64,000 bases of DNA. Source: Escherichia phage A7_1. The stretch lies in sequence record OP795442; one strand, 5' to 3'. The notes beneath the pieces were generated by a model that saw only the letters and a list, made by a program, of their open reading frames with translations, made no database searches and had not been told where the DNA came from. Both the position numbers and the translations under genes were made by a program. How positions within the stretch are numbered: position 1 is the first letter of the stretch; each line of letters starts with the position of its first letter. Of the stretch, positions 754 through 44,079 are shown in pieces.

Positions 754-774
754 ACAAAATGAAAGGCCAACAAA

Positions 775-954
775 ATGAAATCAAGCATGATGGTAGCGAC
801 TGTAAACATTATCATTGGTAACGGAACTGGACACCACGAAATCATAAAAAACAAGGCTTACTCTATTAGCTCCCTCAAAAACGACATGCGTTTATCTTTG
901 GGCCAAATCCGCGCTTACTTTCGTGAAGGCTATCAGAAAAAAGTAGCAAATTAA
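775..954 (+). CDS. hypothetical small protein (59 aa), absent from ORF track
   Basis: ATG 775 to TAA 952-954 read codon by codon; preceded by promoter-hairpin cassette. Confidence 0.45.
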   Translation: MKSSMMVATVNIIIGNGTGHHEIIKNKAYSISSLKNDMRLSLGQIRAYFREGYQKKVAN

Positions 955-957
955 TAG

Positions 958-986
958 TTGACGCAAAGGTCATTTTAATTTAATCT
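958..986 (+). promoter_or_regulatory. sigma70-like promoter (TTGACG 958-963, TAATCT 981-986)
   Basis: 17-nt spacer; precedes RBS GAGG and ATG 1015. Confidence 0.4.
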
Positions 987-1014
987 ATAACAAATCGACA
1001 AATGAGGCATAATC

Positions 1015-1317
1015 ATGTTTACCAAAGCAAATGAGTATTTCTTTTTAGATTTACTTGATGAAAGTATCTTTGTAGCTATGGGCAAAAAGTCAATGGTCTT
1101 TAAACGCAAAAAAGATAATGGTGACTTTGAAGATAGCGAAGCCGTGCTAACAGTCAAGGAAGGTAAAGATCCTGCAACGTCTGTTTTAATCTACACCTTG
1201 ACCAACGGCGGTGAAGTTATCGCATCAGGGAGTAGCCATCCGATCCCAAAATCGGAAGTGAACACTGTAATTATTGGTTTTGTTGCAGCTTGTTTCTACG
1301 AGGAAAAAAGCAAATGA
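1015..1317 (+). CDS. hypothetical protein (100 aa)
   Basis: ORF with RBS and upstream promoter. Confidence 0.55.
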   Translation: MFTKANEYFFLDLLDESIFVAMGKKSMVFKRKKDNGDFEDSEAVLTVKEGKDPATSVLIYTLTNGGEVIASGSSHPIPKSEVNTVIIGFVAACFYEEKSK

Positions 1318-1478
1318 ATCCGCAAAATTTATCTTATGTAAACTGGCCCAATAAGGCTGAGAAGAAAGAAAACTTGAAACGTCTGGTTAACTTTTATCGT
1401 GAAGCTGGTCATAGTAAAGTAACAGCGGTTAAAATGGCAAAGCGCCACCTTAACAAGCCAAGTACTAAACTAATTTAA
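1314..1478 (+). CDS. hypothetical small protein (54 aa)
   Basis: ATG 1314 overlaps upstream stop TGA 1315-1317 (ATGA coupling); RBS-like AGGAAAAAAG. Confidence 0.4.
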   Translation: MNPQNLSYVNWPNKAEKKENLKRLVNFYREAGHSKVTAVKMAKRHLNKPSTKLI

Positions 1479-1486
1479 AAAACTTG

Positions 1487-1515
1487 TTGACGTTGGCTTG
1501 TGCCGTACCTATAAT
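1487..1515 (+). promoter_or_regulatory. sigma70-like promoter (TTGACG 1487-1492, TATAAT 1510-1515)
   Basis: Consensus -10 with 17-nt spacer. Confidence 0.6.
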
Positions 1516-1550
1516 GGACGGCATAGGCAAACGAAATAGGATTTATAGAA

Positions 1551-1757
1551 ATGAAAAAGAAAATTGTATATAATATTATTAGCTTTATCGCAACTATCCT
1601 CCTGGCTATTGCTGGTCTATCTTTGATTGTTGCAGTAGGATCTCTGTTTCCTGGGGCAATAAGTATTAGCATAGCTTTCGCCGCATTGTCTGTTTTTACA
1701 GGGTATGCAGGGATTAAAGTTACTTACTGGTCAGAAGATTACAAATATTCAAACTAA
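1551..1757 (+). CDS. hypothetical membrane protein (68 aa)
   Basis: Two hydrophobic segments; ORF behind consensus promoter. Confidence 0.55.
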   Translation: MKKKIVYNIISFIATILLAIAGLSLIVAVGSLFPGAISISIAFAALSVFTGYAGIKVTYWSEDYKYSN

Positions 1758-1770
1758 ATTGAGGTGTAAG

Positions 1771-1920
1771 ATGTACAAGCTATTAACCTGGGAAACAGAA
1801 TCATCGTCACCGATCAGCCGGACCTTTTTTGATTTGTGCACGGCTTACAGGCTGGCAAAGGGAGGATATCATAAGGCCCAAATCATTGATGAATTTAATG
1901 TTATCCTTTATGAATTTTAA
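1771..1920 (+). CDS. hypothetical small protein (49 aa)
   Basis: ATG 1771 with RBS GAGGTG, 13 nt after upstream stop; track ORF 1705..1920 starts inside upstream gene. Confidence 0.3.
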   Translation: MYKLLTWETESSSPISRTFFDLCTAYRLAKGGYHKAQIIDEFNVILYEF

Positions 1921-1967
1921 TCAATTCATACACTTAAAAGAAAGTTAGAAAAAGTTTTAAAAAGTGG

Positions 1968-2020
1968 TTGCAACAGGTATTGGATAGTAGTATAGTACTT
2001 TCAACGGGGCGAGATGGCCC
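1968..2020 (+). promoter_or_regulatory. promoter (TTGCAA 1968-1973, TATAGT 1991-1996) plus short hairpin 2007-2020
   Basis: 17-nt spacer; GGGC/GCCC stem downstream. Confidence 0.45.
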
Positions 2021-2049
2021 AAAACGAAAAAACTTGAAAGGTGATTATC

Positions 2050-2142
2050 ATGATGGCAATTTTCTTAGTTTCTCTTCTGGTTGCTGTATGTTCTGCCACT
2101 GCTGCCGCTGTACTTTATGACACTCGCTACAATGAGGAATAA
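2050..2142 (+). CDS. hydrophobic micro-protein (30 aa), absent from ORF track
   Basis: ATG 2050, RBS AGGTG, TAA 2140-2142; sequence MMAIFLVSLLVAVCSATAAAVLYDTRYNEE. Confidence 0.3.
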   Translation: MMAIFLVSLLVAVCSATAAAVLYDTRYNEE

Positions 2143-2147
2143 TAAAA

Positions 2148-2366
2148 ATGAATATTGTCAACATTACAGGTAAGACCGAGATCCTTAAGAATCTTGCACC
2201 AGGTGAGTCCACCGTATGGATCTGCAAAGATGGAGAAGTAGAAAAACAAATGAGATTGTTTACCGCTATTTGTTGTCGGTTAAATATGAAAGTTACACAA
2301 ATCCGATCGATGATTGTTAGTGTGGGAAACATTCCGACTGAATGCATAATTCTTACAAAGATTTAA
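2148..2366 (+). CDS. hypothetical protein (72 aa)
   Basis: ORF 6 nt after upstream stop. Confidence 0.5.
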   Translation: MNIVNITGKTEILKNLAPGESTVWICKDGEVEKQMRLFTAICCRLNMKVTQIRSMIVSVGNIPTECIILTKI

Positions 2367-2373
2367 AAATAGC

Positions 2374-2401
2374 TTTACAACAACGATAAAATCAGTACAA
2401 T
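2374..2401 (+). promoter_or_regulatory. sigma70-like promoter (TTTACA 2374-2379, TACAAT 2396-2401)
   Basis: 16-nt spacer. Confidence 0.45.
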
Positions 2402-2442
2402 ACAAATCAGGCAATAAAGCCAACTAAAGAAAGGTAAAGACC

Positions 2443-2682
2443 ATGCAAACTATTATCACTAAGTTTCTTCCTCCTACGAATACCCGTGGCGCTCGCATCA
2501 AAGCAAAATGTTGGTTGACAGATATCACTATCGCCTATCCGGTAGCCGAGATCAACGAAGCCCATAAACTGGCGGCAGAAGTGTTAATTACAAAATTGAA
2601 GATGACAACAGATATTGATTGGAAAATTGTTGCAAGTGGTGAAACACCGGACGGATCAGGTTATGCATTTATCATCAAATAA
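2443..2682 (+). CDS. hypothetical protein (79 aa)
   Basis: ORF with RBS AAAGGTAAAG. Confidence 0.55.
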   Translation: MQTIITKFLPPTNTRGARIKAKCWLTDITIAYPVAEINEAHKLAAEVLITKLKMTTDIDWKIVASGETPDGSGYAFIIK

Positions 2683-2685
2683 TTG

Positions 2686-2741
2686 TTGACAACAGCAAAG
2701 TAAGCGCGTAGTATTCATTTTACAGGGGCGACAAGCGCCCC
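2686..2741 (+). promoter_or_regulatory. promoter (TTGACA 2686-2691, TAGTAT 2709-2714) plus hairpin GGGGCG/CGCCCC 2725-2741
   Basis: 17-nt spacer; 6-bp GC stem after start site. Confidence 0.55.
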
Positions 2742-2750
2742 GCTTATCAG

Positions 2751-3032
2751 ATGAGACAAATCATGAAAATATCATTGGACGTTGCAATCAAGGCCATCGA
2801 ATCCGGTTACACTCTGGTTAAGGACGATAAGGCTAAAATCGTGCATCACGTTAACAAGGAAACAGGCGAAAGCATGATCACATATAAAGCCGCCTACTTT
2901 CTCCAATCAGTAGCAGATCCGCGCCTGCAACGCCAGGTTACGGCGGCTATCGCTAAAAAATTATGTGCTTTACAAGGTACAAGTTTTAACGAGATCGCCC
3001 CGTGTTTTGATTGGTCAAGCTTGAAAAAATAG
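2751..3032 (+). CDS. hypothetical protein (93 aa)
   Basis: ORF after cassette; start could be ATG 2751 or 2763. Confidence 0.55.
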   Translation: MRQIMKISLDVAIKAIESGYTLVKDDKAKIVHHVNKETGESMITYKAAYFLQSVADPRLQRQVTAAIAKKLCALQGTSFNEIAPCFDWSSLKK

Positions 3033-3033
3033 T

Positions 3034-3091
3034 TTGACAATACGCAGTTATCTGGTAAAGTGTACTACATAGCGCGGAAATACTTCCCGCC
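3034..3091 (+). promoter_or_regulatory. promoter (TTGACA 3034-3039) plus imperfect GC hairpin about 3072-3091
   Basis: Weak -10 AAAGTG at 17-nt spacing, then conserved CATAG and GC stem. Confidence 0.45.
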
Positions 3092-3109
3092 ATTAATGAG
3101 GATAATTTA

Positions 3110-3247
3110 ATGAAAACTTTCAACGCAACAGCCTCGACAATTGGTTATATTATTACAGTGCAAGCCGTAGATCTGGTAGCAGCAGCAAACAAGATTAAAA
3201 GAATGATCCCGCTAGGTAGTGAATTTTCCGTTTGGGAAGTAAAATAA
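3110..3247 (+). CDS. hypothetical small protein (45 aa), absent from ORF track
   Basis: ATG 3110, RBS GAGG, TAA 3245-3247. Confidence 0.4.
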   Translation: MKTFNATASTIGYIITVQAVDLVAAANKIKRMIPLGSEFSVWEVK

Positions 3248-3250
3248 TTC

Positions 3251-3312
3251 TTGACAATAGTTTGTTACTTGATAGAATGTATTTCGTAGGGCGGGGCAAT
3301 GGAGCAACGCCC
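3251..3312 (+). promoter_or_regulatory. promoter (TTGACA 3251-3256) plus hairpin GGGCG...CGCCC 3289-3312
   Basis: Same architecture as neighbouring cassettes. Confidence 0.45.
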
Positions 3313-3330
3313 ATTAATGAGGCTAGCATC

Positions 3331-3435
3331 ATGTTAGAGAAAATTTTCACGGTTGCAGTGGTTGGCCTGGCGTTATCGGTTGGAGTGGTTGCAACTATGG
3401 CTAATATGATCCTATCTTCCCACGGTATCGGTTAA
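3331..3435 (+). CDS. hydrophobic micro-protein (34 aa)
   Basis: ATG 3331 after hairpin; track ORF 3232..3435 starts upstream of the promoter in the same frame. Confidence 0.35.
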   Translation: MLEKIFTVAVVGLALSVGVVATMANMILSSHGIG

Positions 3436-3447
3436 GAGAGACACATC

Positions 3448-3834
3448 ATGAAAACAGAAATCATTATTGAAATCATCAACGGTTACAAAGAGGCTTTTAT
3501 CTTTGCTGAATCAGCCAGGAATCACGAAGGTGATTTTATAGATGACATGACTGATTATGATTTTTCAGATCAAGCCCAGCAACGGATCATTCGTGACGTG
3601 GCGGCTTTTTGTGACGCCAATGATGCCGCTATCTCTGAGGCAATGAGCGACGGCGCAACAGCCAACCAGATCGGGAATGATTTACATTTTACCCGTAACG
3701 GTCACAGCGTAGGCTTTTGGGATCGCCCTGAGATATACACTACTAACACGGCTAACCGTTTGACCAATGCCGCTAAATTTATGCCAAACGTGTCAGCCTA
3801 CATTGGGAAAGATAATCTGATTTATATTGAATAA
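3448..3834 (+). CDS. hypothetical acidic protein (128 aa)
   Basis: ORF with RBS AAGAGAG. Confidence 0.55.
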   Translation: MKTEIIIEIINGYKEAFIFAESARNHEGDFIDDMTDYDFSDQAQQRIIRDVAAFCDANDAAISEAMSDGATANQIGNDLHFTRNGHSVGFWDRPEIYTTNTANRLTNAAKFMPNVSAYIGKDNLIYIE

Positions 3835-3840
3835 AAAGTA

Positions 3841-3895
3841 TTGACAAGCTGAATCAACCTGACAAGATGTATCACATAGGGGCGATAAACGCCCC
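3841..3895 (+). promoter_or_regulatory. promoter (TTGACA 3841-3846) plus hairpin GGGGCG-ATAAA-CGCCCC 3879-3895
   Basis: 6-bp GC stem after conserved CATAG. Confidence 0.5.
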
Positions 3896-3915
3896 ATAAC
3901 AGAAAGGGTAATCTT

Positions 3916-4110
3916 ATGACGTTAGCAACATGTACCGGATCAAAAATTGCTTGCTTTGAGTTTATGGAAGACTACCACACGACCGCAATCACTGACCAAT
4001 ATATTACAGTGATCACGCGTGACGGTATCGCCTGGCATGTTCCGGTTTATGATGGGGATACCTATGAAGTCACCGACAGCGACGGCAATACAGCTATCTT
4101 TGTTGTCTAA
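3916..4110 (+). CDS. hypothetical protein (64 aa)
   Basis: ORF with RBS AAAGGG. Confidence 0.55.
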   Translation: MTLATCTGSKIACFEFMEDYHTTAITDQYITVITRDGIAWHVPVYDGDTYEVTDSDGNTAIFVV

Positions 4111-4121
4111 GGGGGAACACT

Positions 4122-4349
4122 ATGCACAATAACATCATTACCGATCGTGCCGCCACTATGCGCCCTGGCGATCGGGCACGTTTACAGGTTGGCGCTTATC
4201 CGTTCCCTACTTATGACTTTTGCAAGGTGACGGCAGTCGAAAACAATCCCTTTGATCCTGATACTGTGATCATATGGTACGAAGGAAGGGGAAATAAGTA
4301 TGAAGATGTTTTATGGCGGGATGAGCATATCAACATTATTCGTTACTAA
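4122..4349 (+). CDS. hypothetical protein (75 aa)
   Basis: ORF with RBS GGGGGA. Confidence 0.55.
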   Translation: MHNNIITDRAATMRPGDRARLQVGAYPFPTYDFCKVTAVENNPFDPDTVIIWYEGRGNKYEDVLWRDEHINIIRY

Positions 4350-4466
4350 TCGCCACCTAACAGCCTAAATAGTAGGAGGCAATGCAATCCCTACTCAATG
4401 AGAATGGAGCGCCCTGGCTTATGCTGGGGCGTTTTATGTTGTATGGAAATAATTTAGAAAATAAGC

Positions 4467-4525
4467 TTGACGCCGGGAATGTTAGCGCGTATAGTTTATC
4501 ACATAGGGCGGCAATAGTGCCGCTC
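4467..4525 (+). promoter_or_regulatory. promoter (TTGACG 4467-4472, TATAGT 4490-4495) plus hairpin GCGGCA/TGCCGC 4506-4525
   Basis: 17-nt spacer; lies inside track ORF 4382..4717. Confidence 0.5.
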
Positions 4526-4543
4526 ATAATTGGAGTAGAGATC

Positions 4544-4717
4544 ATGGCAATTCTGGCGAAAGATGTAAAAGTAGGTATGACCTTTAATGATTGTGAAGTT
4601 GTCTATGTTGCCGCGCACGGCGACGGTATCATTACCATTGAAACAGAACACTTTGATCGAGATTGTGGCGAGATGGAATATTTTTCTTGCGAGTATCATG
4701 AAAACGATGAGTTTTAA
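4544..4717 (+). CDS. hypothetical protein (58 aa); could extend in frame from ATG 4382
   Basis: ATG 4544 with RBS GGAG downstream of embedded cassette. Confidence 0.4.
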   Translation: MAILAKDVKVGMTFNDCEVVYVAAHGDGIITIETEHFDRDCGEMEYFSCEYHENDEF

Positions 4718-4721
4718 ACTA

Positions 4722-4778
4722 TTGACACTGTAAGTAATTGTGTTAATATTTTTGTGTAGGGCGGCAATGTTGCCGCTC
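4722..4778 (+). promoter_or_regulatory. promoter (TTGACA 4722-4727, AATATT 4745-4750) plus hairpin GCGGCA/TGCCGC 4759-4778
   Basis: Hairpin nearly identical to the one at 4506-4525. Confidence 0.55.
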
Positions 4779-4797
4779 ACTGACTGGAGCTATCACC

Positions 4798-5199
4798 ATG
4801 ACCTTTACAATCACCTCTTACACTGACGTTGCCAGCATTGCTAAAACTTTCGGCCCTGAAGCCCTTAAATATGCGGTATCCAATGGTAATCTGACAAAAG
4901 AGGAATGTTATCTGATTGGAAGCTGTAAACGTTGGGCGGTATCTCGTAACATCGAGATTGAAAACGTAAATGATGGCAACATCGAATATAGCGTTGATGC
5001 AGTATTCCAAGTTGTTGATTTAGGTGGTATCTATAATACCAATCTTAATGATGTGCGTATCGTTCGCACTGGCTTTGGGGCTTATGATGTTCCAGTTCGT
5101 GAAGCTATGGAAAAAGGTTATATTAATCCAGCCATTTTAAGCATGATCATGACTGAGGCCAAACAACGTAACGAGATACGGGCTATCCTGGGCCTGTAA
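4798..5199 (+). CDS. hypothetical protein (133 aa)
   Basis: ORF with RBS GGAG. Confidence 0.6.
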   Translation: MTFTITSYTDVASIAKTFGPEALKYAVSNGNLTKEECYLIGSCKRWAVSRNIEIENVNDGNIEYSVDAVFQVVDLGGIYNTNLNDVRIVRTGFGAYDVPVREAMEKGYINPAILSMIMTEAKQRNEIRAILGL

Positions 5200-5220
5200 T
5201 GAAATATTAATGGAAAACTA

Positions 5221-5272
5221 TTGACACGGATCGTCAATATGCTAATATTTATCACGTAGGGCGGCAACGCCC
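5221..5272 (+). promoter_or_regulatory. promoter (TTGACA 5221-5226, AATATT 5244-5249) plus hairpin GGGCG-GCAA-CGCCC 5259-5272
   Basis: 17-nt spacer; GC stem with GNRA-like loop. Confidence 0.55.
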
Positions 5273-5298
5273 CAGATTAATAAAAATAGGAAATAAAT

Positions 5299-5505
5299 AT
5301 GACTACTTCAATGATCAGATCTTCCGACATTAAAAAGGCTTTATCTGCATTGCGTTATCATCATAGAATGAAAGTAATCAACGATGAGAGCTATCTAGAT
5401 TCATCGTTAGAAAGCGATACGTTGGAAGCCATTTCAAAATTATCTGATTTGCATAAACGCATGACCGAAAGCAACCGATCCGACTTCATAGGGGGCGAAA
5501 TATGA
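5299..5505 (+). CDS. hypothetical protein (68 aa)
   Basis: ORF with RBS AGGAAA. Confidence 0.55.
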   Translation: MTTSMIRSSDIKKALSALRYHHRMKVINDESYLDSSLESDTLEAISKLSDLHKRMTESNRSDFIGGEI

Positions 5506-5762
5506 GCATTGCAATGTTAATCAATACCGTAGAAGAGGCGAAAGCATTAAAGTTACGTGTTGAACTGATTGATCAGCCAGGTGGAGATCTCCTTGTACAA
5601 ATCTATCCCCCAAAGGATGATTCTGGCGCTTATGATTGGTGCTACTCTGACACGTTCGAACAAGTAGACATTAAAGCAATAACATCATTTATCAATAGGG
5701 CTATACTTGAGCAAACGATAGAACTTAACGGGATGTTAAAAACACCCTGGCACATTTACTGA
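5502..5762 (+). CDS. hypothetical protein (86 aa)
   Basis: ATGA overlap with upstream gene. Confidence 0.55.
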   Translation: MSIAMLINTVEEAKALKLRVELIDQPGGDLLVQIYPPKDDSGAYDWCYSDTFEQVDIKAITSFINRAILEQTIELNGMLKTPWHIY

Positions 5763-5772
5763 GTTCGACAAA

Positions 5773-5800
5773 AGGGCTTGACTTGTTCAGCCCTTTTTTG
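5773..5800 (+). terminator. intrinsic terminator
   Basis: GC-rich hairpin followed by TTTTTT. Confidence 0.6.
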
Positions 5801-5939
5801 CTATTCTTATCAAACGGGCGGCACCTGGGAACAGGGGGGAGGTAATCACTGGACGACTCCGCTATATAGTGATAGTAAATAGCTATCAATAATCTCCAAA
5901 AATAAAATAAAACATATCGAATCTTTACAATTCTTTCTG

Positions 5940-5968
5940 TTGACACAACAACCGCATTACAGTATTAT
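5940..5968 (+). promoter_or_regulatory. sigma70-like promoter (TTGACA 5940-5945, TATTAT 5963-5968)
   Basis: 17-nt spacer; no ORF downstream for about 340 nt. Confidence 0.5.
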
Positions 5969-5975
5969 TTATCTC

Positions 5976-6240
5976 GTAGGGCAGCGAAGCAGTGATGTAA
6001 AGTAGTTACTCTATGATGTAAGTTCTGAGAAGTCGAATCCGATAAAGTATCAGAAAGTTTCTAAGTTTTCGAATCGTCCAGATGAAAAAGGCTGGCAAGT
6101 GTTGAGAAAGGGCACGTTGAGTAAGTCCTGAACAGGGGCGCTCCTAGACACCTTCTACTGAGATTGCGATCGAAGTGTTAAACTGTGAGAAACGATAAAG
6201 AGTACCAGGAAAGAAAGAAGTAAAAGAAGTGAAAAAGATT
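5976..6240 (+). ncRNA. candidate small non-coding RNA or long leader
   Basis: Promoter-driven segment with stops in all frames and longest ATG ORF of 7 codons; AG-rich 3' part. Confidence 0.25.
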
Positions 6241-6241
6241 G

Positions 6242-6271
6242 TTGACACGAAGGTAAGTTTTGTACTATTAT
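6242..6271 (+). promoter_or_regulatory. sigma70-like promoter (TTGACA 6242-6247, TATTAT 6266-6271)
   Basis: 18-nt spacer. Confidence 0.5.
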
Positions 6272-6315
6272 CTATCTTGTAGGGCAAACTTCAAAAACAT
6301 TAAAAAGGGTACAAA

Positions 6316-6591
6316 ATGTTACAGCTTAACGCCAAATTAGACAAAGAAATCACTGAATTTTGGGATATGGTAGTAGCTACAGATGTTGACGGTGTAGCAA
6401 GTCCTTACCTCAACAACATCGAATACCACAATGTTGCTGCAATGAATGCAGAATACGCAGAAGAAGGCGGCGCGGATAAGTTTGCTAAAAGCAACGGTTT
6501 CACTGATGCTAACGACATGATGCAATCAGTATTGTGGCAAGCCCAGGAAGATTTTCAAGAAAAAACCCTTGAATTCGCCAGACGTTCATAA
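6316..6591 (+). CDS. hypothetical acidic protein (91 aa)
   Basis: ORF with RBS AAGGG. Confidence 0.55.
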   Translation: MLQLNAKLDKEITEFWDMVVATDVDGVASPYLNNIEYHNVAAMNAEYAEEGGADKFAKSNGFTDANDMMQSVLWQAQEDFQEKTLEFARRS

Positions 6592-6643
6592 TAGAATAAT
6601 CAAACGGGCCGAAAGGCCCACTAACTAACCTAACAGGATTATC

Positions 6644-6916
6644 ATGATGAATCGCATCGACCAATTGAAAGTAGTTCAGCATATGGCCTACCGTATCCTT
6701 GAAGTTCAGAAAGGAAGCAAAAAAGAAGTATGTGAGAAAGCGTACAAGGTATTCAGCCATAAATCTGACGATTGGAAGTTGCAGAAAGTCAAAAAGGCCG
6801 ACATTCTGGGCTATCTTGAAGAAGAGATCCGACTTGCAGACCAAAAACAGATTCGTCGTGATGAGGCTGAACATAACCAGGCTTGGAAAGAATGGTTTAA
6901 AGGGTACACTAAGTAA
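6644..6916 (+). CDS. hypothetical protein (90 aa)
   Basis: ORF with RBS CAGGA. Confidence 0.5.
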   Translation: MMNRIDQLKVVQHMAYRILEVQKGSKKEVCEKAYKVFSHKSDDWKLQKVKKADILGYLEEEIRLADQKQIRRDEAEHNQAWKEWFKGYTK

Positions 6917-6925
6917 TACTAAAAC

Positions 6926-6947
6926 AGGGGTCATATGGCCCCTTTGT
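6926..6947 (+). terminator. intrinsic terminator
   Basis: Hairpin AGGGGTCATATGGCCCCT then TTTG. Confidence 0.5.
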
Positions 6948-6977
6948 AAATATCCTATTAATTTACAATTTTCCCTA

Positions 6978-7007
6978 TTGACAGAGAAGTCAGTTTTGCA
7001 CTATAGT
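6978..7007 (+). promoter_or_regulatory. sigma70-like promoter (TTGACA 6978-6983, TATAGT 7002-7007)
   Basis: 18-nt spacer. Confidence 0.5.
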
Positions 7008-7047
7008 TAAGTTCCTGGCAGCAAACAACAAAACAAAGGATAATAGC

Positions 7048-7467
7048 ATGAACATCAAATCAACTAATCCAGCATACTCTTTCGATAACGCCTTTTGTCA
7101 CGGTAGCGCCGCCAAAGGTTTTGAAATTGATGGTAAACTGGTTATCGTCAATGTTGATGGGGAAGAGGTTGCAGTTTATCCAGTAGCAGACGTTAAAAGC
7201 CGTTTACAATGCCGCATGGATGTTAACGATTATCGCCTTGATCCGGTTCGTGTAGTTGCCCTGGTTCTGGAAGAGGAAATTAAAGCAATGCAGCACAGCA
7301 ACAAATTTATCGGCGATGCACAGGACAACATGAAAGTAAGCCGCCACAAAGTTAATGAAGCACTGAAAGATTTTGGCTTTAAAGATCTAGTTATCAAACG
7401 TGATGAAAAATTCCGCTTTCGTAATGATCTGGCAAATCGCTACTATGAAATATATGAAGCACTTTAA
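7048..7467 (+). CDS. hypothetical protein (139 aa)
   Basis: ORF with RBS AAGGA. Confidence 0.6.
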   Translation: MNIKSTNPAYSFDNAFCHGSAAKGFEIDGKLVIVNVDGEEVAVYPVADVKSRLQCRMDVNDYRLDPVRVVALVLEEEIKAMQHSNKFIGDAQDNMKVSRHKVNEALKDFGFKDLVIKRDEKFRFRNDLANRYYEIYEAL

Positions 7468-35875: not shown

Positions 35876-36168
35876 TACAGATCTCCCAGGTCATCGTTAT
35901 TGAAGTCAAGTTCTACTTTGCTCGGCAAATTCTTTGCTACCAGTTCAGTGTAGCCTCCAACGTACTCGCTGTCAATAAAAATCTGAGGAACTGTACGTGG
36001 AACATAACCAACAGCATCGCTTACCTTTTTAACCATCTCTTGCAGATTGCCAGAGTTTGCACCCACGTCAATATACTCATACTCATAACCTTTCTGATCA
36101 AGGAGGGTTTTTGCATTGTCACAGAACGGGCAGTTTACTTTACCAAAAATCACATTACTCATTATCAA
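35875..36168 (-). CDS. nrdC: glutaredoxin-like protein (NrdC-like)
   Basis: CPFCDNAK active site; resembles T4 NrdC from memory. Confidence 0.7.
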   Translation of the reverse strand: MIMSNVIFGKVNCPFCDNAKTLLDQKGYEYEYIDVGANSGNLQEMVKKVSDAVGYVPRTVPQIFIDSEYVGGYTELVAKNLPSKVELDFNNDDLGDL

Positions 36169-36199
36169 TCTCCCTTATACAGAAAACAAAACTATTTAA

Positions 36200-36427
36200 T
36201 CATGCTTCTTTGAACGTTGCAAGCACTGTTGATTCAATTTCGTAATAATTTTCACGAACTTTAATATCTTCATTCAATGCCCAAGGTACACCAAGATCAG
36301 TGCTCACATATTGGAGATCATCTGATCCCTCATAAACAGAATTCTGTTCAAACACAAAACCTTCCACTGCAAAAGTACAAATCAGCTTTTTCACTTTTAT
36401 AATCTCCAGGTTAAGGGCCTTTCGGCC
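36200..36427 (-). CDS. hypothetical protein (about 75 aa)
   Basis: Internal ATG chosen to avoid overlap with nrdB. Confidence 0.4.
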   Translation of the reverse strand, partial: GRKALNLEIIKVKKLICTFAVEGFVFEQNSVYEGSDDLQYVSTDLGVPWALNEDIKVRENYYEIESTVLATFKEA

Positions 36428-36434
36428 CATTTTA

Positions 36435-37532
36435 TTAAAGTTCGAAATCGAAGTCAGATGCACTCACTGAAGAGTCAACCTGACCCGACAGATATTGACC
36501 ATTTTCTAGTTCCTGTGGGGTTACCTGAACGTTTTTGGTATTCAGGTGGCTATTGATCCAAGGAATAGGGTTCTTCAGCGGTTTATCAATGAAACTATCT
36601 AAACCAACTGCTCGCATACGTTGATCAGCCATATAATCTACGTATTGCCACAGAATCTCTTTATTCAGTCCAACCATCGAACCATCTTTGAACAGGTATT
36701 CTGCCCAATCACGTTCTTGCTGTCGTGCCTGCAAGAACAATTCACGAGCCTCATCTTTGCAATCTTCTGCAACTCGTGCAATAAGGTCACCTTCACGACC
36801 ACTTTGCATTTCATTAAGAATATACTGAGTACCAGACAAATGCAAGGCTTCATCACGGGCGATCAGTTCAATAATGTTGGTGTTACCAGTCATGATACTA
36901 CGCTCACCAAATGCAAACGAACATGCAAAGCTCACATAGAAACGAATTGCTTCCAGAGCATTAATACTGTGCATACACAGGTACAGTGCTCGTGCATGTG
37001 CATAACGATCAACTGGCAGGTTCAAAGCGTAACGACTATTCAACTGGAATAAATCGTCATACAACTTCGTAACCGCATCAGCACGTTCCAGAATTTCTGG
37101 AGTTTTCATGATCTCATCAAGAATTGCAGAAGGATCACTAAATACATTTCGAATAATGTGTGTATATGAACGACTGTGGATTGTTTCACTGAAACCCCAA
37201 GTCTCAATCCAAGTTTCCAAAGCTGGATCGGAAACGATTGGAAGTAATACTGCATTCGGACCACGCCCTTGAACGGAATCAAGCAACGTTTGATACTTAA
37301 GATTACTAATGAAAATATGTTTTTCATGGTCAGGCAATCCCATAAAGTCAATTCGATCACGGGTTACATCGATCTCTTCCGGTCGCCAGAAGAATGCCAA
37401 CTGCTTTTCTGTCAGCTTTTCAAATTTGTTATGTTTTTGCTTGTCGTAACGAGAAACGTTAACAGACTCACCAAAGAACATCGGTTGTTCCATGAAATCA
37501 AACTGGTTTTTATTAAAAGTCGTGTAGCTCAC
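36435..37532 (-). CDS. nrdB: ribonucleotide reductase class I beta subunit
   Basis: 365 aa; position and ferritin-like helical composition. Confidence 0.75.
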
Positions 37533-37587
37533 TTATTATCTCCTCTTCGTTAATCTGAAAACCATTATACCTGAACTTACCAAGAAA

Positions 37588-37929
37588 TCAATAGTTATTT
37601 CTTAAAATTTCAATCCCATACCGCTTAAAGACTTCCTTTGCTGCCATAAACTTTTGTGCTGCACTTGGATTTGAAGTGTGAACAAACAGAACAGCAGGAT
37701 ACAGGATCGGTTTGCCAAACACAAGTTTTTCTTCTAACATTTCTAAGCAGCGGTAACCTTCTTTTGAATCTTCACCAAGGTCATTGTCGAAGTGCCATTC
37801 TGTTACCCGACGATACATTTTATTGGGGTCATCAAGGAACTCGATAAACTGGTCAGAATTTTTAAACCAGATGGCATCATCATGCCCGTAATCTTTTGGA
37901 TCTCTCAAATCATCAAGCCAAATCTTCAT
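37588..37929 (-). CDS. hypothetical protein (113 aa)
   Basis: Track ORF. Confidence 0.5.
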   Translation of the reverse strand: MKIWLDDLRDPKDYGHDDAIWFKNSDQFIEFLDDPNKMYRRVTEWHFDNDLGEDSKEGYRCLEMLEEKLVFGKPILYPAVLFVHTSNPSAAQKFMAAKEVFKRYGIEILRNNY

Positions 37930-37983
37930 CTTTTCCTCCTGTCTCGTTTATGTGGTTTATTATACGGATTACCTTACCAAAGT

Positions 37984-38011
37984 CAATAAAAAACCGCCCC
38001 GAAGGGCGGTT
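37984..38011 (-). terminator. intrinsic terminator (AAAAAACCGCCCCGAAGGGCGGTT family)
   Basis: GC stem with GAA loop, then T-run on minus strand. Confidence 0.6.
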
Positions 38012-38015
38012 AATT

Positions 38016-38204
38016 TTAATTGTACTTGTTGAGAATGTTAAACATATCTTTTGCAATATATTTATTGTCTCGACAACCAGCAAGGTTGTTACGAAGTGCA
38101 GCCACATAGATCTCTGTGCCGCAACCTGGGTAGGATGTGCCGAATCTTTTTGCCTGTCTTTTAAATGTCCAACGATCAATAAAGAACCAAGAGATAAATT
38201 TCAT
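38016..38204 (-). CDS. hypothetical small protein (62 aa) between two identical hairpins
   Basis: Strong RBS GAGGAGG 5 nt before ATG. Confidence 0.45.
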   Translation of the reverse strand: MKFISWFFIDRWTFKRQAKRFGTSYPGCGTEIYVAALRNNLAGCRDNKYIAKDMFNILNKYN

Positions 38205-38217
38205 ATTCCTCCTCAGA

Positions 38218-38236
38218 ACCGCCCCGAAGGGCGGTT
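38218..38236 (-). promoter_or_regulatory. GC hairpin ACCGCCCCGAAGGGCGGT without T-run
   Basis: Same stem as the terminator family but followed by an RBS on the minus strand. Confidence 0.4.
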
Positions 38237-38244
38237 ATTTATTG

Positions 38245-40503
38245 TCACAGTTTACAAGCGCCAGATTCGCAGCCTTCATCCTCTTCATCTTCACCATCGC
38301 GAGTTTCTTGATAGTAAACAGTCTTCAGGCCAATCTTGTAAGCATACATCAGGTCACGCAGCACAATCTTAATCGGCAGTTTGCCACCTGGATAATCCCA
38401 AGGTTTGTAGAAGGTATTGGTCGAGATCGATTGGTCAATAAACTTCTGGATGATAGCCATCAGGTTAAGATAAGCTGTCGGTCCATTCATATCCCATTTG
38501 TACTCGTACACCACACCTTCCTCACCAACACCAGGAACCAGCGTCGGAAGCATACCCGCAGGTGACTTCTTAAACGTCACTGGACCACGAGGAGGTTCAA
38601 TGCCGTTGGTAGAGTTAGTAATCTGGCTTGATGTTTCACAAGGCATCATTGTGGACAACGTTGAGTTACGTAATCCGTGCAATGCGATATCCAGACGCAA
38701 ACTTTCCCAATCTTGTTGCAATTCTGCGGTATGCAACTGATCAACTTCTTTCTTGTAGCGATCGATAGGTAAGATGCCACGAGAATAAGATGTTTGATCG
38801 TACCACTCACAAGAACCACGCTCTTTCGCTAACTGAACAGAAGCTTTCAGCAGGTAGAACTGGAATGCTTCCGCAAGTTTATGAACTTCATTGGCAGCTT
38901 CCGGTGAACTATATTTAAGTCCACGTTTAGCTAAGTAATACGCCAAGTTAGTCCAGCCAATACCCAAGGTACGACGCAGTAACGTTTTCTCTGCTGCAAG
39001 AACAGGGTAGTTCTGATAATCAAGCAGGTTATCAAGAGCACGTACCGTGATCATAACAGGTTCTTCTAAATCTTCAAGCTTCTCAATCTTCCCGAGGTTG
39101 ATTGCTGATAAAGTACACAGTGCAACTTCACCAGAATCTTTCGGGTCCTTAATGTTATTGATCGGAGCCGTAGGTAATGCAATTTCCATACACAGGTTAG
39201 ATTGCTTAATCGGAGCCACTTCAGGAAGGAACGGACTGTTGCTGTTGCAATGGTCAACGTTCTGAATATAAATACGACCTGTCTGGCTACGTTCTTGAGC
39301 TAAACGAGTGAAAGCATCAGTCGCTTCAAGCTCTTTGCGAGGAATGGAAGGGTCTGCTTCCAATTTCTCATACAGTTCTGCAAATGCTTCTTGATCCGAG
39401 AAGAAGTATTTATACAGATCACCGTTTGCTACGTTTGGATGGAAGAAACTGATCTTGCCACCTTTCTGTAAGCGAGTATAGAAGAACTTGTTGATCTGAA
39501 CACCATAATCAACATGTCGTGCACGGGTGCTTTCAGTACCACGGTTGTTCTTCATTACGATCAGGTTTTCAAAGTCCCAGTGCCAAATCGGGTAGAAGTA
39601 GTTAGCTGAAGCTTTACGCAGACCACCTTGAGATGCCCAACCTAAAGATTCTTGATACATTCGAACAATGCCAACCGTACCTGCATGTTTAACTTCCCCG
39701 CCGCGAATAGGAGCGTCCTGTCCACGAATAGCACCAAAGTTCAAACCGATACCTGCTCGCTGTGCTGCATACTTACCTTGTGCTTCAACTGCTGCAAAGA
39801 TCTGGTTAATATCATCACCGGACTCAATCAGTACACAAGAACTGAATTGTCGAGTCGGAGTTCGTACACCACCCATAATCGGAGTAGGCAGAGAAACCTT
39901 CATGGTAGAAACCATATTGTACAGATCAATCACTTTTTGTAGACGCTTCTTAGGATCTTCTTTACTCATCAAGCACATTGCGATCAGCATCAGTGCTGTC
40001 TGAGGAGATTCAAAGATTTCACCTGTTACACGATCCTTGACTAGATATTTATCTTCGTACTGACGCATAGCTGCGTAAGTGTAATCAAAATCACGGTCAT
40101 GATCGATAACTGTATCTAAAAATTCAATCTCTTCTTTCGTGTAATCTGAAATAAGATGTTCATCGTATTTACCGCGAGCTACAGTCATAAGAATGTGAGC
40201 GTACAGTGGACGAGGTTCAAAACCACCATAAGCCTGCTTACGCAGTTTAAACAGAAGCAGACGTGCTGCTGGATACTGATAGTTTGGACTTTCTACACTA
40301 ATTAGGTCCGCTGCGGACTTGATCAGGGTATCGTGAATCGCGTCGGTTTCTACACCATCATACATCTGAATCTGAGATTTCATCAGGATATCAGAAGGAC
40401 TTACATCATTAACCCCTTCACAAGACCAAACTACAACACGGTTGATCTTCTCAGCTTCGAATTTCTCTACAGAACCATTACGCTTACGAACAGTAATACC
40501 CAA
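38245..40503 (-). CDS. nrdA: ribonucleotide reductase class I alpha subunit
   Basis: 752 aa; C-terminal CESGACKL redox tail; typical NrdA length. Confidence 0.85.
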   Translation of the reverse strand: MGITVRKRNGSVEKFEAEKINRVVVWSCEGVNDVSPSDILMKSQIQMYDGVETDAIHDTLIKSAADLISVESPNYQYPAARLLLFKLRKQAYGGFEPRPLYAHILMTVARGKYDEHLISDYTKEEIEFLDTVIDHDRDFDYTYAAMRQYEDKYLVKDRVTGEIFESPQTALMLIAMCLMSKEDPKKRLQKVIDLYNMVSTMKVSLPTPIMGGVRTPTRQFSSCVLIESGDDINQIFAAVEAQGKYAAQRAGIGLNFGAIRGQDAPIRGGEVKHAGTVGIVRMYQESLGWASQGGLRKASANYFYPIWHWDFENLIVMKNNRGTESTRARHVDYGVQINKFFYTRLQKGGKISFFHPNVANGDLYKYFFSDQEAFAELYEKLEADPSIPRKELEATDAFTRLAQERSQTGRIYIQNVDHCNSNSPFLPEVAPIKQSNLCMEIALPTAPINNIKDPKDSGEVALCTLSAINLGKIEKLEDLEEPVMITVRALDNLLDYQNYPVLAAEKTLLRRTLGIGWTNLAYYLAKRGLKYSSPEAANEVHKLAEAFQFYLLKASVQLAKERGSCEWYDQTSYSRGILPIDRYKKEVDQLHTAELQQDWESLRLDIALHGLRNSTLSTMMPCETSSQITNSTNGIEPPRGPVTFKKSPAGMLPTLVPGVGEEGVVYEYKWDMNGPTAYLNLMAIIQKFIDQSISTNTFYKPWDYPGGKLPIKIVLRDLMYAYKIGLKTVYYQETRDGEDEEDEGCESGACKL

Positions 40504-40514
40504 TTTATTTCTCC

Positions 40515-40763
40515 TTATTTAGTTTCAGTTTTAGTTGCAGACTTGTTGATCAGGGTATCATATTTATCGACATTTTCAAGTGTCGGTTCACCTAATCGAA
40601 CAGTCAATCCAGAATACTGATCGTGGTAAGTATCGTCATAACCAAACGAATCATCAACCAGATCATTAAACTGCAACCAACCTAAGTATTCATGCTTACT
40701 TGCAAAACCACGCTGGAACCATTTAGTTTGCTCAACCGGAACTGTCAATTTAGCTTTACCCAT
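40515..40763 (-). CDS. hypothetical protein (82 aa)
   Basis: Track ORF. Confidence 0.45.
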   Translation of the reverse strand: MGKAKLTVPVEQTKWFQRGFASKHEYLGWLQFNDLVDDSFGYDDTYHDQYSGLTVRLGEPTLENVDKYDTLINKSATKTETK

Positions 40764-40777
40764 AATATTTCTCCTTA

Positions 40778-41251
40778 TTATTTAATCAGTGTCTCAGAAA
40801 ACTCAGGAAGATCCATAACGATTGTTTCGGAACGATCTTCTTTTCGTGTGTATTTACGGGTATTCACTTTTTCAACAACCGGAATATCAAAATCCAAAGA
40901 ATTAACAAAAGCCGTCGCTTTAGAACTACTAACATCTAGGATATCCATCTTTTCGTAGATATCTACAAGTGGGAATTCTGATTTGTCACGTAGACGTCCA
41001 GAAAACACTGTTGTTTCACGACAAAGGTACGGCTTATCGATACAACGTACATTCACTCGATTAATTCGATCAATCTGACAAGGCTTATACTCTCCAGTTT
41101 CTTCATTAAGAATAGATACTTGAAATCCGATTAGGTGAAGAACTTTACGAAGCGTTTTATCATCCTTTGGATCAAACTTCATGATTTTTGCACATTCCAG
41201 AATGAAATCCAGAGTTACTGCACCGTATTTGACTTCTTTCTTAAAACCCAT
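40778..41251 (-). CDS. hypothetical protein (157 aa)
   Basis: Track ORF. Confidence 0.5.
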   Translation of the reverse strand: MGFKKEVKYGAVTLDFILECAKIMKFDPKDDKTLRKVLHLIGFQVSILNEETGEYKPCQIDRINRVNVRCIDKPYLCRETTVFSGRLRDKSEFPLVDIYEKMDILDVSSSKATAFVNSLDFDIPVVEKVNTRKYTRKEDRSETIVMDLPEFSETLIK

Positions 41252-41338
41252 AATTTTCTCCTCGACAACTCTTTAAAAGAGGGAGCTAATTGCTCCCATT
41301 CCTCGTATAATATAAAATTAACTAACCAATGTCAAACA

Positions 41339-42376
41339 TTATTTTGCAACATTTCCAGGAATTAGTTGTCGATGCTGGACAAAACCTTTCAAGTTACCAC
41401 TCCAGAAATTACCATCACGATCTACATGAGTAATTCCTTCTTCCCAACTGGTAGGGTCCCAAGCCACATTCACCATTGGAACATTAGGGATAAAATCTTC
41501 CTCTGTTTCAGCGATCTCTTTAGCTTGGTGTTCAAAAGGGGACGCGTGTACCTTTTTACCACCCACAAGTCGAGAATAAATATCTAAAGCTTTATCTTTT
41601 GTACTGTCAAGTCGGCGATAACTTACCTGACCGCAGCAAGAAGAGGAAATTCGTAAAGCCTCTTCTTCACTGAGCATAACAGGCTTGCCATCTTCATCCT
41701 CTACATAATAACCAAAGAATACGAAAAAGTCATCACCAAACAATCCAATATTTTCGTAAGCATGTTCAACATAGGGAGTATGCCAAACCCCAGGCTCCAA
41801 TTTTTCTGGATGAGAAGCATCATACGCTTCTTTCATTTTCTTTGCAAGCACTTCGATTGTTGGATCTGCATCTGCATCTACACGCAACCAGAAGAAATTT
41901 TCAAACTCGGTTGCTGTGACTACCGTCTTCATCATTTGGAAAGGTTCAATCAGGCGGTTGGCAATTTGCTTATGATACCCTGCCGTCTCAAATCGTTCAG
42001 CCCATTCAGATGCAGACTCTGCCGCTTTAACCCAAGCTTCTCGGCCTGTACAGAAAAGATTGTGAGCCAGACCATCTTCACCATCAACCCAATCATACCA
42101 AACTTTACCGTCGTGTTCCACACCATGATCTTGCATACCTGGTTTGTTAGCCCCAAATCGAACAGGCATTGCTGTGTTATTACGAACAAGCTCAATCATC
42201 TTCTTGATCGGAACTGCACGAGAAGACATTGCGTTTCGACTAAACAGTCGATGGGTCATCAACTCAGAATGAATAAAACGAGGATACGTCAATTCAAAAG
42301 TTGTGATTCGAGAATTTGTTACCGTACCAATAGAGTCTGCAATAATTTTAACTTCAATTTGATTCAGCTTGTCCAC
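41339..42376 (-). CDS. thyX: ThyX-like flavin-dependent thymidylate synthase (tentative)
   Basis: THRLFSRNAMSSR segment resembles the RHR-x7-S ThyX motif; 345 aa is long for ThyX. Confidence 0.45.
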   Translation of the reverse strand: MDKLNQIEVKIIADSIGTVTNSRITTFELTYPRFIHSELMTHRLFSRNAMSSRAVPIKKMIELVRNNTAMPVRFGANKPGMQDHGVEHDGKVWYDWVDGEDGLAHNLFCTGREAWVKAAESASEWAERFETAGYHKQIANRLIEPFQMMKTVVTATEFENFFWLRVDADADPTIEVLAKKMKEAYDASHPEKLEPGVWHTPYVEHAYENIGLFGDDFFVFFGYYVEDEDGKPVMLSEEEALRISSSCCGQVSYRRLDSTKDKALDIYSRLVGGKKVHASPFEHQAKEIAETEEDFIPNVPMVNVAWDPTSWEEGITHVDRDGNFWSGNLKGFVQHRQLIPGNVAK

Positions 42377-44052: not shown

Positions 44053-44079
44053 AATAAAAAACCGCCCCGAAGGGCGGTT
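44053..44079 (-). terminator. intrinsic terminator (same hairpin family)
   Basis: ACCGCCCCGAAGGGCGGT then T-run on minus strand. Confidence 0.6.

What the first reader, a model, noticed from the sequence alone, without database searches (positions are those of the whole stretch)
37984..38240. 62-aa ORF bracketed by two identical GC hairpins between nrdB-side genes and nrdA
ACCGCCCCGAAGGGCGGT occurs at 37993-38010 and 38218-38235, flanking ORF 38016..38204, which has a very strong RBS (GAGGAGG). Identical flanking hairpins suggest a small inserted module or a hairpin-gated gene expressed only on read-through.
Basis: seen in the sequence. Interest (0 to 1): 0.45.

Follow-up and report, generated by a model that had tools for sequence, protein, structure and literature searches.

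The report
Reused terminator hairpin flanking small phage gene
A small conserved phage gene between the two ribonucleotide reductase genes is flanked by two copies of the phage's standard terminator hairpin, of which only the downstream copy looks like a working terminator, so this is ordinary phage operon punctuation and not a new mobile or gated module.

Summary
The 20-nt palindrome AACCGCCCCGAAGGGCGGTT lies at 37992-38011 and 38217-38236, flanking a 62-aa ORF. All genes here are on the minus strand, where the loop reads C(UUCG)G.

The window matches Escherichia phage A7_1 (Vequintavirinae).

- **Downstream copy (D).** It is followed by UUUUUUAUU and a near-consensus sigma-70 promoter, so it is a canonical terminator-promoter junction. 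D is identical in a divergent relative and in Certrevirus phages.
- **Upstream copy (U).** It starts 8 nt after the nrdA stop and ends 3 nt before the Shine-Dalgarno sequence. It has no U-tract, so it is at most a leaky attenuator or an RNA-stability hairpin.
- **Identity of U and D.** It holds in only 2 of 7 relatives. Four carry a compensatory G-C to A-U change in U, and in the seventh U is degenerate.
- **The gene.** It is real (10 synonymous versus 3 non-synonymous codon changes). Its roughly 20-cluster uncharacterised family (phrog_14771) occupies the nrdA-nrdB gap across two Vequintavirinae lineages, usually with only the downstream hairpin. It is absent from phage CR9.
- **The hairpin.** The same 20-mer occurs in 89 unrelated viral contigs.

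Verdict: an ordinary new instance of known elements, of low interest. Termination strength was not measured.

The parts
38245..40503 (-). nrdA, the class Ia ribonucleotide reductase large subunit. Its stop codon TGA is at 38247-38245.
   Evidence: ORF list. It is annotated as the RNR alpha subunit in A5-4 and relatives. It is 90% identical to the L009 protein and 76% to the CR9-like L095 protein.
38217..38236 (-). Hairpin U: AACCGCCC-UUCG-GGGCGGUU. It starts 8 nt after the nrdA stop and is followed by CUGAGGAGG, so it has no U-tract.
   Evidence: Sequence. Fold of -15.1 kcal/mol with the Shine-Dalgarno sequence left unpaired. Not called as a terminator on the minus strand. One compensatory pair and one wobble change among close relatives, with 100% of cells paired. 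Degenerate in L009. Absent in CR3, POP15 and L111.
38207..38213 (-). Shine-Dalgarno sequence GAGGAGG of ORF62.
   Evidence: Sequence. Invariant in the 6 close phages.
38016..38204 (-). ORF62, a 62-aa protein of an uncharacterised phage family (phrog_14771). It is predicted to form three helices.
   Evidence: 100% identical to A71_48 of Escherichia phage A7_1. PHROG hit at E 3.7e-5. HMMER and profile searches find about 20 clusters, all unnamed. 10 synonymous versus 3 non-synonymous codon changes. AlphaFold2 model with pLDDT 85, helices at 2-24, 29-38 and 48-61. No informative fold match.
37992..38011 (-). Hairpin D, the same 20-mer, followed by UUUUUUAUU. This is a canonical intrinsic terminator for the nrdA-ORF62 transcript.
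   Evidence: Terminator scan hit on the minus strand. Fold of -17.6 kcal/mol, z -3.7. Stem invariant in 6 phages. The 20-mer is identical in L009 and in Certrevirus phages.
37959..37986 (-). Sigma-70-type promoter TTGACT-16-TATAAT. Its upstream AT-rich part overlaps the terminator's T-tract. It drives orf113 and probably nrdB.
   Evidence: Promoter scan, 11 of 12 matches. Both hexamers are invariant while the spacer varies in 6 phages. The equivalent in L009 is TTGACT..TATAGT. The equivalent in Certrevirus is TTGACA..TATAAT.
37588..37929 (-). orf113, a cREC_REC-domain protein and the first gene of the next transcription unit.
   Evidence: Pfam PF20274, E 5e-18. phrog_1479.
36435..37532 (-). 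nrdB, the RNR small subunit. A further promoter-like site, TTGATT-16-TATAAT, lies at 37591..37564.
   Evidence: ORF list, annotation in relatives, promoter scan.
44060..44079 (-). Third exact copy of the hairpin, with a U-tract. It lies between two co-directional genes.

Best explanation
The two hairpins are copies of the standard intrinsic-terminator stem-loop used throughout this phage group: a GC stem closed by a C(UUCG)G tetraloop on the mRNA.

Copy D has its U-tract and is immediately followed by a near-consensus sigma-70 promoter. It ends the transcription unit that runs through nrdA into ORF62 and starts the orf113-nrdB unit.

Copy U sits between the nrdA stop and the ORF62 ribosome-binding site and has no U-tract. 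RNA polymerase should mostly read through it. It probably acts as a weak attenuator, or as an RNA-stability or processing hairpin that sets the ratio of nrdA to ORF62 expression.

ORF62 is a genuine, fast-evolving small accessory gene. It is co-transcribed with nrdA and has long occupied the nrdA-nrdB gap in these phages. It is not a recently inserted mobile module.

Shown: the anatomy, conservation, synteny and coding constraint. Inferred: read-through at U, termination at D, promoter activity, and the role of U.
For: - **D is a canonical terminator and U is not.** D and copy 3 are called on the minus strand, while U is not. The next 8 nt contain 6 T after D and 1 T after U. Of the 89 IMG/VR copies of the same hairpin, 80 have at least 5 T there.
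- **The promoter after D looks functional.** It matches 11 of 12 consensus positions. Its hexamers are conserved while its spacer varies.
- **D is conserved from the A7_1 clade to Certrevirus.** It is always followed by a U-tract and a sigma-70 promoter before nrdB or orf113.
- **U is labile.** It keeps its stem through one compensatory and one wobble change in close relatives. It is degenerate in L009, where nrdA is 90% identical. It is absent in CR3, POP15 and L111, where the ORF abuts or overlaps the nrdA stop.
- **The ribosome-binding site is accessible.** The Shine-Dalgarno sequence is unpaired in the predicted fold.
- **ORF62 is under purifying selection.** There are 10 synonymous versus 3 non-synonymous codon changes, and 11 of 16 variable sites are at third codon positions. 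Family members share 11 invariant residues.
- **Published background.** Composite terminator/promoter cassettes of this anatomy are described for T4-like phages (PMC2839356, PMC4122927). Sigma-70-like promoters and rho-independent terminators are described for Certrevirus (PMC7344957). Both flanking hairpins are annotated as terminators in phiTE.
Against: - No transcript data exist here, so termination efficiencies at U and D are unmeasured.
- U retains UUCU directly after its GC stem, so partial termination cannot be excluded.
- The compensatory change is a single evolutionary event and is statistically weak: 45 of 500 shuffles reach the observed score.
- A stable hairpin right after nrdA has arisen or persisted in several lineages (the A7_1 clade, phiTE, CR9). 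That hints at selection for some function there that I cannot specify.
- The function of ORF62 is unknown.
Confidence: 0.62

Rival explanations
1. Hairpin-gated gene. U is an efficient terminator or pause site despite its poor U-tract, perhaps with a host or phage factor. ORF62 would then be made only when termination is suppressed, for example later in infection.
For: ORF62 has no promoter in the 40-nt gap, so it depends on read-through. U is very stable at -15 kcal/mol. UUCU follows the GC stem. Full terminators without a following promoter also sit inside operons of this phage, for example copy 3 at 44079-44060, so regulated read-through may be a general strategy. phiTE has a stronger hairpin with a partial U-tract at the same place, annotated as a terminator.
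Against: U has the poorest T-tail of the 94 instances of this hairpin I scored and is not called by the scan on the coding strand. The relatives CR3, POP15 and L111 express the homologous gene with no hairpin at all, abutting or overlapping nrdA. In L009 the hairpin is not stable, z -0.4.
Confidence: 0.15
2. Recombination module of the PeSL type. The two identical 20-nt direct repeats are substrates for homologous recombination that excises or inserts the ORF62 cassette, possibly as a mini-circle. This would explain its presence or absence among relatives.
For: D has the full PeSL anatomy: stop codon, AT-rich tract, stem-loop upstream of the -35 box, sigma-70 promoter, Shine-Dalgarno sequence and ATG (PMC2839356). 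Integration of a circle through the hairpin would leave exactly what is seen, namely an upstream copy stripped of its U-tract and a downstream copy that keeps the U-tract and promoter. CR9 and L095 lack the gene and have one hairpin. phiTE has two hairpins bracketing the gene plus extra DNA.
Against: U has no promoter. U and D are identical in only 2 of 7 relatives, and the arrangement is stable in all 7. CR3, POP15 and L111 carry the gene with one hairpin only, so the CR9 difference is not a simple hairpin-hairpin deletion from that state; its junction shows only TAA/TAG microhomology. Four indels and one 6.6-kb difference between the window and W70 are not bounded by these hairpins. The divergence of ORF62 scales with that of nrdA (62% at 90%, about 30% at 76%), which fits vertical descent.
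Confidence: 0.12
3. U is a functionless relic. It would be a copy of the terminator hairpin placed after nrdA by ectopic conversion or duplication and tolerated because it lacks a U-tract.
For: U is degenerate in L009 and absent in CR3, POP15 and L111, with the gene retained. The identity between U and D is confined to the 20-nt palindrome itself.
Against: All 6 close phages keep a perfect 8-bp stem. A double change, G-C to A-U, preserves pairing, as does an A-U to G-U change.
Confidence: 0.07
4. U works on the opposite strand. It would be a terminator for antisense (plus-strand) transcription and would protect nrdA from convergent transcripts.
For: On the plus strand both U and D are followed by T-rich tails and are called terminator-like.
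Against: There is no good plus-strand promoter nearby, only a 9-of-12 match at 37712. No plus-strand genes lie in this block. A-rich upstream flanks are common in ordinary bidirectional terminators.
Confidence: 0.04

Closest known systems
Rho-independent (intrinsic) terminators with C(UUCG)G tetraloop hairpins, as long known from intercistronic regions of phage T4 (my recollection of Tuerk et al. 1988, not re-read here) and as annotated in Pectobacterium phage phiTE (JQ015307) and CB7 (PMC7344957)
   Same: GC-rich 8-bp stem, UUCG loop closed by C-G, and a position a few nucleotides after a stop codon. D has the U-tract. The homologous small ORF in phiTE is already annotated with a terminator on each side.
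   Different: U lacks the U-tract that defines an intrinsic terminator. The loop sequence is not fixed among relatives (UUCG, UUUG, UUCU).
PeSL cassettes (promoter-early stem-loops) of T4-like phages RB49 and phi1 (Arbiol et al. 2010, PMC2839356; Comeau et al. 2014, PMC4122927)
   Same: D is a composite of stop codon, AT-rich tract, stem-loop, sigma-70-like promoter, Shine-Dalgarno sequence and start codon. The motif is repeated in the genome. It flanks a small gene of unknown function that is present or absent among relatives.
   Different: The phage family is different (Vequintavirinae). U carries no promoter. The indels examined here are not bounded by pairs of these cassettes. No evidence for mini-circles.
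Morons of lambdoid phages (an accessory gene with its own promoter and terminator)
   Same: A small accessory gene inserted between conserved genes and followed by a terminator.
   Different: ORF62 has no promoter of its own. It is co-transcribed with nrdA and is syntenic across genera.
Variable small ORFs between nrdA and nrdB of T4-like phages (nrdA.1, nrdA.2, mobE; my own knowledge)
   Same: The nrdA-nrdB gap is a slot for small facultative genes.
   Different: No sequence similarity was found, and ORF62 is not a homing endonuclease.

Membership tests
Intrinsic (rho-independent) terminator | Stable GC-rich stem-loop in the transcript | tested here: met
   U folds at -15.1 and D at -17.6 kcal/mol, each with an 8-bp stem containing 6 GC pairs.
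Intrinsic (rho-independent) terminator | U-rich tract immediately 3' of the stem | tested here: not met
   For U the tail is CUGAGGAG, with 1 T in 8, and the scan does not call it on the minus strand. For D the feature IS met: UUUUAUUG after GGUU, with 6 T in 8. D is therefore filed as a terminator and U is not.
Intrinsic (rho-independent) terminator | Transcripts end there in vivo or in vitro | not testable with these tools
   Needs Term-seq or a reporter assay.
C(UUCG)G tetraloop hairpin | UUCG loop closed by a C-G pair | tested here: met
   The window has CCC-UUCG-GGG at both sites on the minus strand. Relatives show UUUG and UUCU loops, so the tetraloop is not strictly conserved.
PeSL-type terminator/promoter cassette | Sigma-70-like promoter combined with a stem-loop, AT-rich tract, Shine-Dalgarno sequence and ATG in one intergenic motif | tested here: met
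   Met for D: hairpin, TTTTTTA, TTGACT-16-TATAAT, AGGAGG, ATG. Not met for U, which has no promoter.
PeSL-type terminator/promoter cassette | Indels between related phages are bounded by pairs of cassettes | tested here: not met
   The CR9 versus CR3/POP15 indel lies next to one hairpin only. The window versus W70 indels are not at these hairpins.
PeSL-type terminator/promoter cassette | Formation of excised mini-circles | not testable with these tools
   Needs inverse PCR on infected cells.
Moron | Own promoter upstream and terminator downstream of the accessory gene | tested here: not met
   There is no promoter in the 40 nt between the nrdA stop and the ORF62 start. A terminator is present downstream.
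phrog_14771 / ORF62 protein family | Significant profile match and shared invariant residues | tested here: met
   PHROG E 3.7e-5 over residues 2-58. 20 clusters at E <= 0.001 with the family profile. Invariant residues are W6, F7, R11, W12, N40, C44, R45, I50, D53, M54 and I57.

The most novel reading that the evidence does not exclude
The hairpin-plus-promoter motif is the Vequintavirinae counterpart of the PeSL cassettes of T4-like phages. The U/ORF62/D arrangement would then be the footprint of a cassette that integrates and excises through recombination within the hairpin. This would make the nrdA-nrdB gap a small hot spot for exchange of an uncharacterised three-helix protein that is also found in nin regions of lambdoid prophages.
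Probability: 0.1. Interest if true: 0.4.

Novelty: new member of a known kind. Interest (0 to 1): 0.15.

Why it matters
It matters little beyond annotation. The result shows that the apparent bracket is the reuse of one optimal terminator hairpin. It gives the operon structure of the nucleotide-metabolism block of this phage group: nrdA and ORF62 share a transcript that ends at D, and orf113 and nrdB start from their own promoters. It also defines a small, uncharacterised protein family that is consistently lodged between nrdA and nrdB in Vequintavirinae.

If the U copy were shown to tune read-through or mRNA stability, it would be a neat natural example of a terminator hairpin converted by loss of its U-tract. 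That principle is already known.

Tried and rejected
- **Rfam.** A scan of 36000-41000 gave only sub-threshold chance hits.
- **Protein libraries for ORF62.** Pfam, PADLOC and PDB sequence searches gave nothing.
- **Fold searches.** Searches with the AlphaFold2 model against PDB and BFVD gave no named match.
- **Close nrdA relatives in IMG/VR.** A protein-pattern search found only one distant locus. Relatives came instead from the exact-hairpin scan and from look-ups of ORF62 homologues.
- **Hairpins as indel boundaries.** I compared about 45 kb of the window with phage W70. They are not boundaries. The 6.6-kb difference joins within repeated coding sequence.
- **RNR accessory role for ORF62.** I considered something like YfaE or NrdI. 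I rejected it because family members also sit in nin regions of lambdoid prophages and in other phages without RNR genes, and because only one cysteine is conserved.
- **A promoter inside the nrdA 3' end that would make U a 5'-terminal hairpin.** By eye I found only a weak TGnGACAAT match, which the scan does not report. I did not pursue it.
- **Similarity between the sequence after U and the sequence after copy 3.** CTGAGGAGGAATATGAAATTTATC resembles CTGAGAGGAGATTAATATGAAATTTATC. I judged this too short and too consensus-like (ribosome-binding site plus ATG AAA) to count as evidence of common origin.

Full report
**What is there**

The region was read on both strands. Every gene in this block is on the minus strand. 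In transcription order the block contains:
- thyX (42376..41339)
- two small ORFs
- nrdA (40503..38245)
- the 62-aa ORF (38204..38016)
- a 113-aa ORF (37929..37588)
- nrdB (37532..36435)
- a glutaredoxin-like gene, an M15 peptidase, phoH and nrdD

The perfect palindrome is actually 20 nt, AACCGCCCCGAAGGGCGGTT, at 37992-38011 and 38217-38236. A third exact copy lies at 44060-44079. Two related hairpins lie at 12501 and 51995. None is expected by chance. On the mRNA strand the hairpin reads AACCGCCC-UUCG-GGGCGGUU, a GC stem with a C(UUCG)G tetraloop.

**Origin of the window**

ORF62 is 100% identical to hypothetical protein A71_48 of Escherichia phage A7_1. Megablast found five phages that are 96-98% identical across the region: A5-4, UPEC06, A73, W70 and LTH01. 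All are unclassified Vequintavirinae and all have the same gene order.

**The two copies are not equivalent**

*Copy D* lies downstream, 4 nt after the ORF62 stop.
- It is followed by TTTTTTATT and is called as a terminator on the coding strand.
- Its T-tract runs straight into TTGACT-16-TATAAT, an 11-of-12 sigma-70 match. An AGGAGG and the orf113 start codon follow.
- Its fold is -17.6 kcal/mol, z -3.7.

*Copy U* starts 8 nt after the nrdA stop.
- It is followed directly by CUGAGGAGGAAUAUG, which is the ORF62 ribosome-binding site.
- It has no U-tract and is not called as a terminator on the coding strand.
- It folds at -15.1 kcal/mol and leaves the Shine-Dalgarno sequence single-stranded.

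I scored 94 instances of this exact 20-mer: 89 from the IMG/VR viral collection and 5 from related phages.
- Eighty-four have at least 5 T in the next 8 nt (80 of the 89 IMG/VR copies).
- U has 1 T in 8, the lowest of all.
- One other copy that leads straight into a ribosome-binding site was seen, in a CR9-like contig (L039).

**Comparison with close relatives (alignment A1)**

- The D stem is invariant, while its loop varies (UUCG, UUUG, UUCU).
- Both promoter hexamers are invariant, while the spacer varies.
- U is identical to D only in the window and A5-4.
- In UPEC06, LTH01, A73 and W70 the U stem carries a G-C to A-U double change and the loop is UUUG. A73 and W70 add an A-U to G-U change.
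- All cells still pair. This is one compensatory event and is statistically weak, since 45 of 500 shuffles reach the observed score.

**More distant relatives**

A full HMMER scan of 1.8 billion representative proteins found only three true ORF62 homologues.

*L009, a 57-kb contig.*
- One homologue, 62% identical, lies on this contig.
- The synteny is the same: nrdA, orf61, orf113, nrdB. Its nrdA is 90% identical.
- D is the identical 20-mer, followed by TTTTTTGTTGACT.
- U is reduced to GGCCC-UUCG-GGGAC, which is not a stable fold, z -0.4.

*Certrevirus phages.* The exact-hairpin scan led to this group, where nrdA is 76% identical. Four arrangements were found.
- CR9 and contig L095: nrdA stop, 2 nt, the same hairpin, a U-tract, TTGACA..TATAAT, then nrdB. 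There is no small ORF.
- CR3 and POP15: a 56-aa ORF of the same family starts 8-10 nt after the nrdA stop, with no hairpin between. It is followed by the single hairpin, the promoter and nrdB.
- L111: the ORF overlaps the nrdA stop (ATGA).
- phiTE: a GCCGCCC-UUCG-GGGCGGC hairpin with a partial U-tract follows nrdA. Then come about 340 nt of other sequence, the 56-aa ORF, the standard hairpin, the promoter and nrdB. Both hairpins are annotated as terminators in JQ015307.

*What this shows.* The small gene is a long-standing, facultative occupant of the nrdA-nrdB gap. D is the conserved end of that unit. The hairpin upstream of the gene is lineage-specific and labile.

**The gene is real**

- Among the six close phages, 10 variable codons are synonymous and 3 are non-synonymous. 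Eleven of 16 variable sites are at third codon positions.
- A profile search finds about 20 clusters of 53-80 aa. All are unnamed and none has a Pfam domain. They share 11 invariant residues.
- ORF62 matches phrog_14771, a family of unknown function.
- Members outside Vequintavirinae lie in the nin region of a Xenorhabdus lambdoid prophage, just before ninX, and in other phage contigs without RNR genes. A function specific to RNR is therefore unlikely.
- AlphaFold2 with the family alignment gives a confident three-helix model with pLDDT 85. It has no named structural relative. Function remains unknown.

**How it most likely works**

- Transcription that enters nrdA passes U, because a hairpin without a U-tract is a poor intrinsic terminator (established knowledge of intrinsic termination).
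- The transcript continues through ORF62 and ends at D.
- A new transcript starts at the promoter fused to D and covers orf113 and nrdB. nrdB has a further promoter-like site at 37591..37564.
- U may cause some termination or pausing. It may also serve as a 3' barrier for a processed nrdA message, or as a 5' protective stem for ORF62 mRNA. I cannot tell these apart without transcript data.

**Comparison with known systems**

- D fits the anatomy of the composite terminator/promoter cassettes (PeSLs) described for T4-like phages (PMC2839356, PMC4122927).
- Sigma-70-like promoters and rho-independent terminators have been catalogued for Certrevirus (PMC7344957).
- The PeSL idea would explain an ORF flanked by two identical repeats as a recombination module. 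I tested what I could, with three results against it.
  - The CR9 versus CR3 difference is not a hairpin-to-hairpin deletion.
  - The indels between the window and W70 over about 45 kb are not bounded by these hairpins.
  - ORF62 divergence tracks nrdA divergence, as expected for vertical descent.
- I keep the PeSL reading as a minor rival.

**Verdict**

The feature is ordinary operon punctuation built from a widely reused terminator hairpin, flanking a small conserved gene of unknown function.

Noticed in passing
window 37588-37929 (-): orf113 is a cREC_REC domain protein (PF20274, 'cyclic-phosphate processing receiver', E 5e-18). In other Vequintavirinae (phage naam, Klebsiella phage K54_rec3) its homologue sits directly after the RNA ligase gene. 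Here it has been relocated between ORF62 and nrdB with its own promoter. UPEC06 mis-annotates it as 'RNA ligase 1 and tail attachment protein'.
   Followed up: partly
window 44060-44079 (-): The third exact copy of the hairpin has a full U-tract. It lies between a 364-aa gene and a 212-aa gene, with only 37 nt and no promoter before the next start codon. The downstream gene can therefore only be expressed by reading through a canonical terminator. This is a better candidate for read-through gating than ORF62.
   Followed up: partly
window 41281-41335 (-); also 733-753, 3879-3895, 4508-4523 (+): GC hairpins sit a few nucleotides downstream of -10-like elements. One example is TTGACA-17-TATTAT at 41335..41307 followed by GGGAGC-AATTA-GCTCCC. 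On the plus strand several are preceded by ATCACAT. This suggests that many transcripts of this phage begin with a 5' stem-loop.
   Followed up: no
window 709-7347: A 6.6-kb segment is absent from phage W70. The junction falls inside similar coding sequence (…AAAGTTAAAAGC / …AAAGTTAATGAAGC), which suggests recombination between paralogous genes.
   Followed up: partly
L107 (CR9) 1959-2058 versus L108 (CR3) 2323-2600: The ORF62-family gene is precisely absent from Cronobacter phage CR9 but present in CR3, POP15, phiTE and CB7. The junction shows only TAA/TAG microhomology. In CR3 the 56-aa ORF is not annotated.
   Followed up: yes
proteins P0020-P0022 (alignment A4): Some ORF62-family members carry an N-terminal extension of about 25 aa that looks like a transmembrane helix. 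This hints at membrane association for part of the family.
   Followed up: no
window 37530-37532 (-): nrdB starts with GTG in this phage, whereas L009 and the Certrevirus phages use ATG at the same position.
   Followed up: no
L002 (Pectobacterium phage P7_Pc) 3001-3037: A 37-nt stretch containing the hairpin and both its flanks (AAAATT…TTTTTTATT) is almost identical to D. It lies after an unrelated gene (a putative restriction endonuclease next to the DNA polymerase), so the terminator with its flanks is shared between distant loci and genera.
   Followed up: partly
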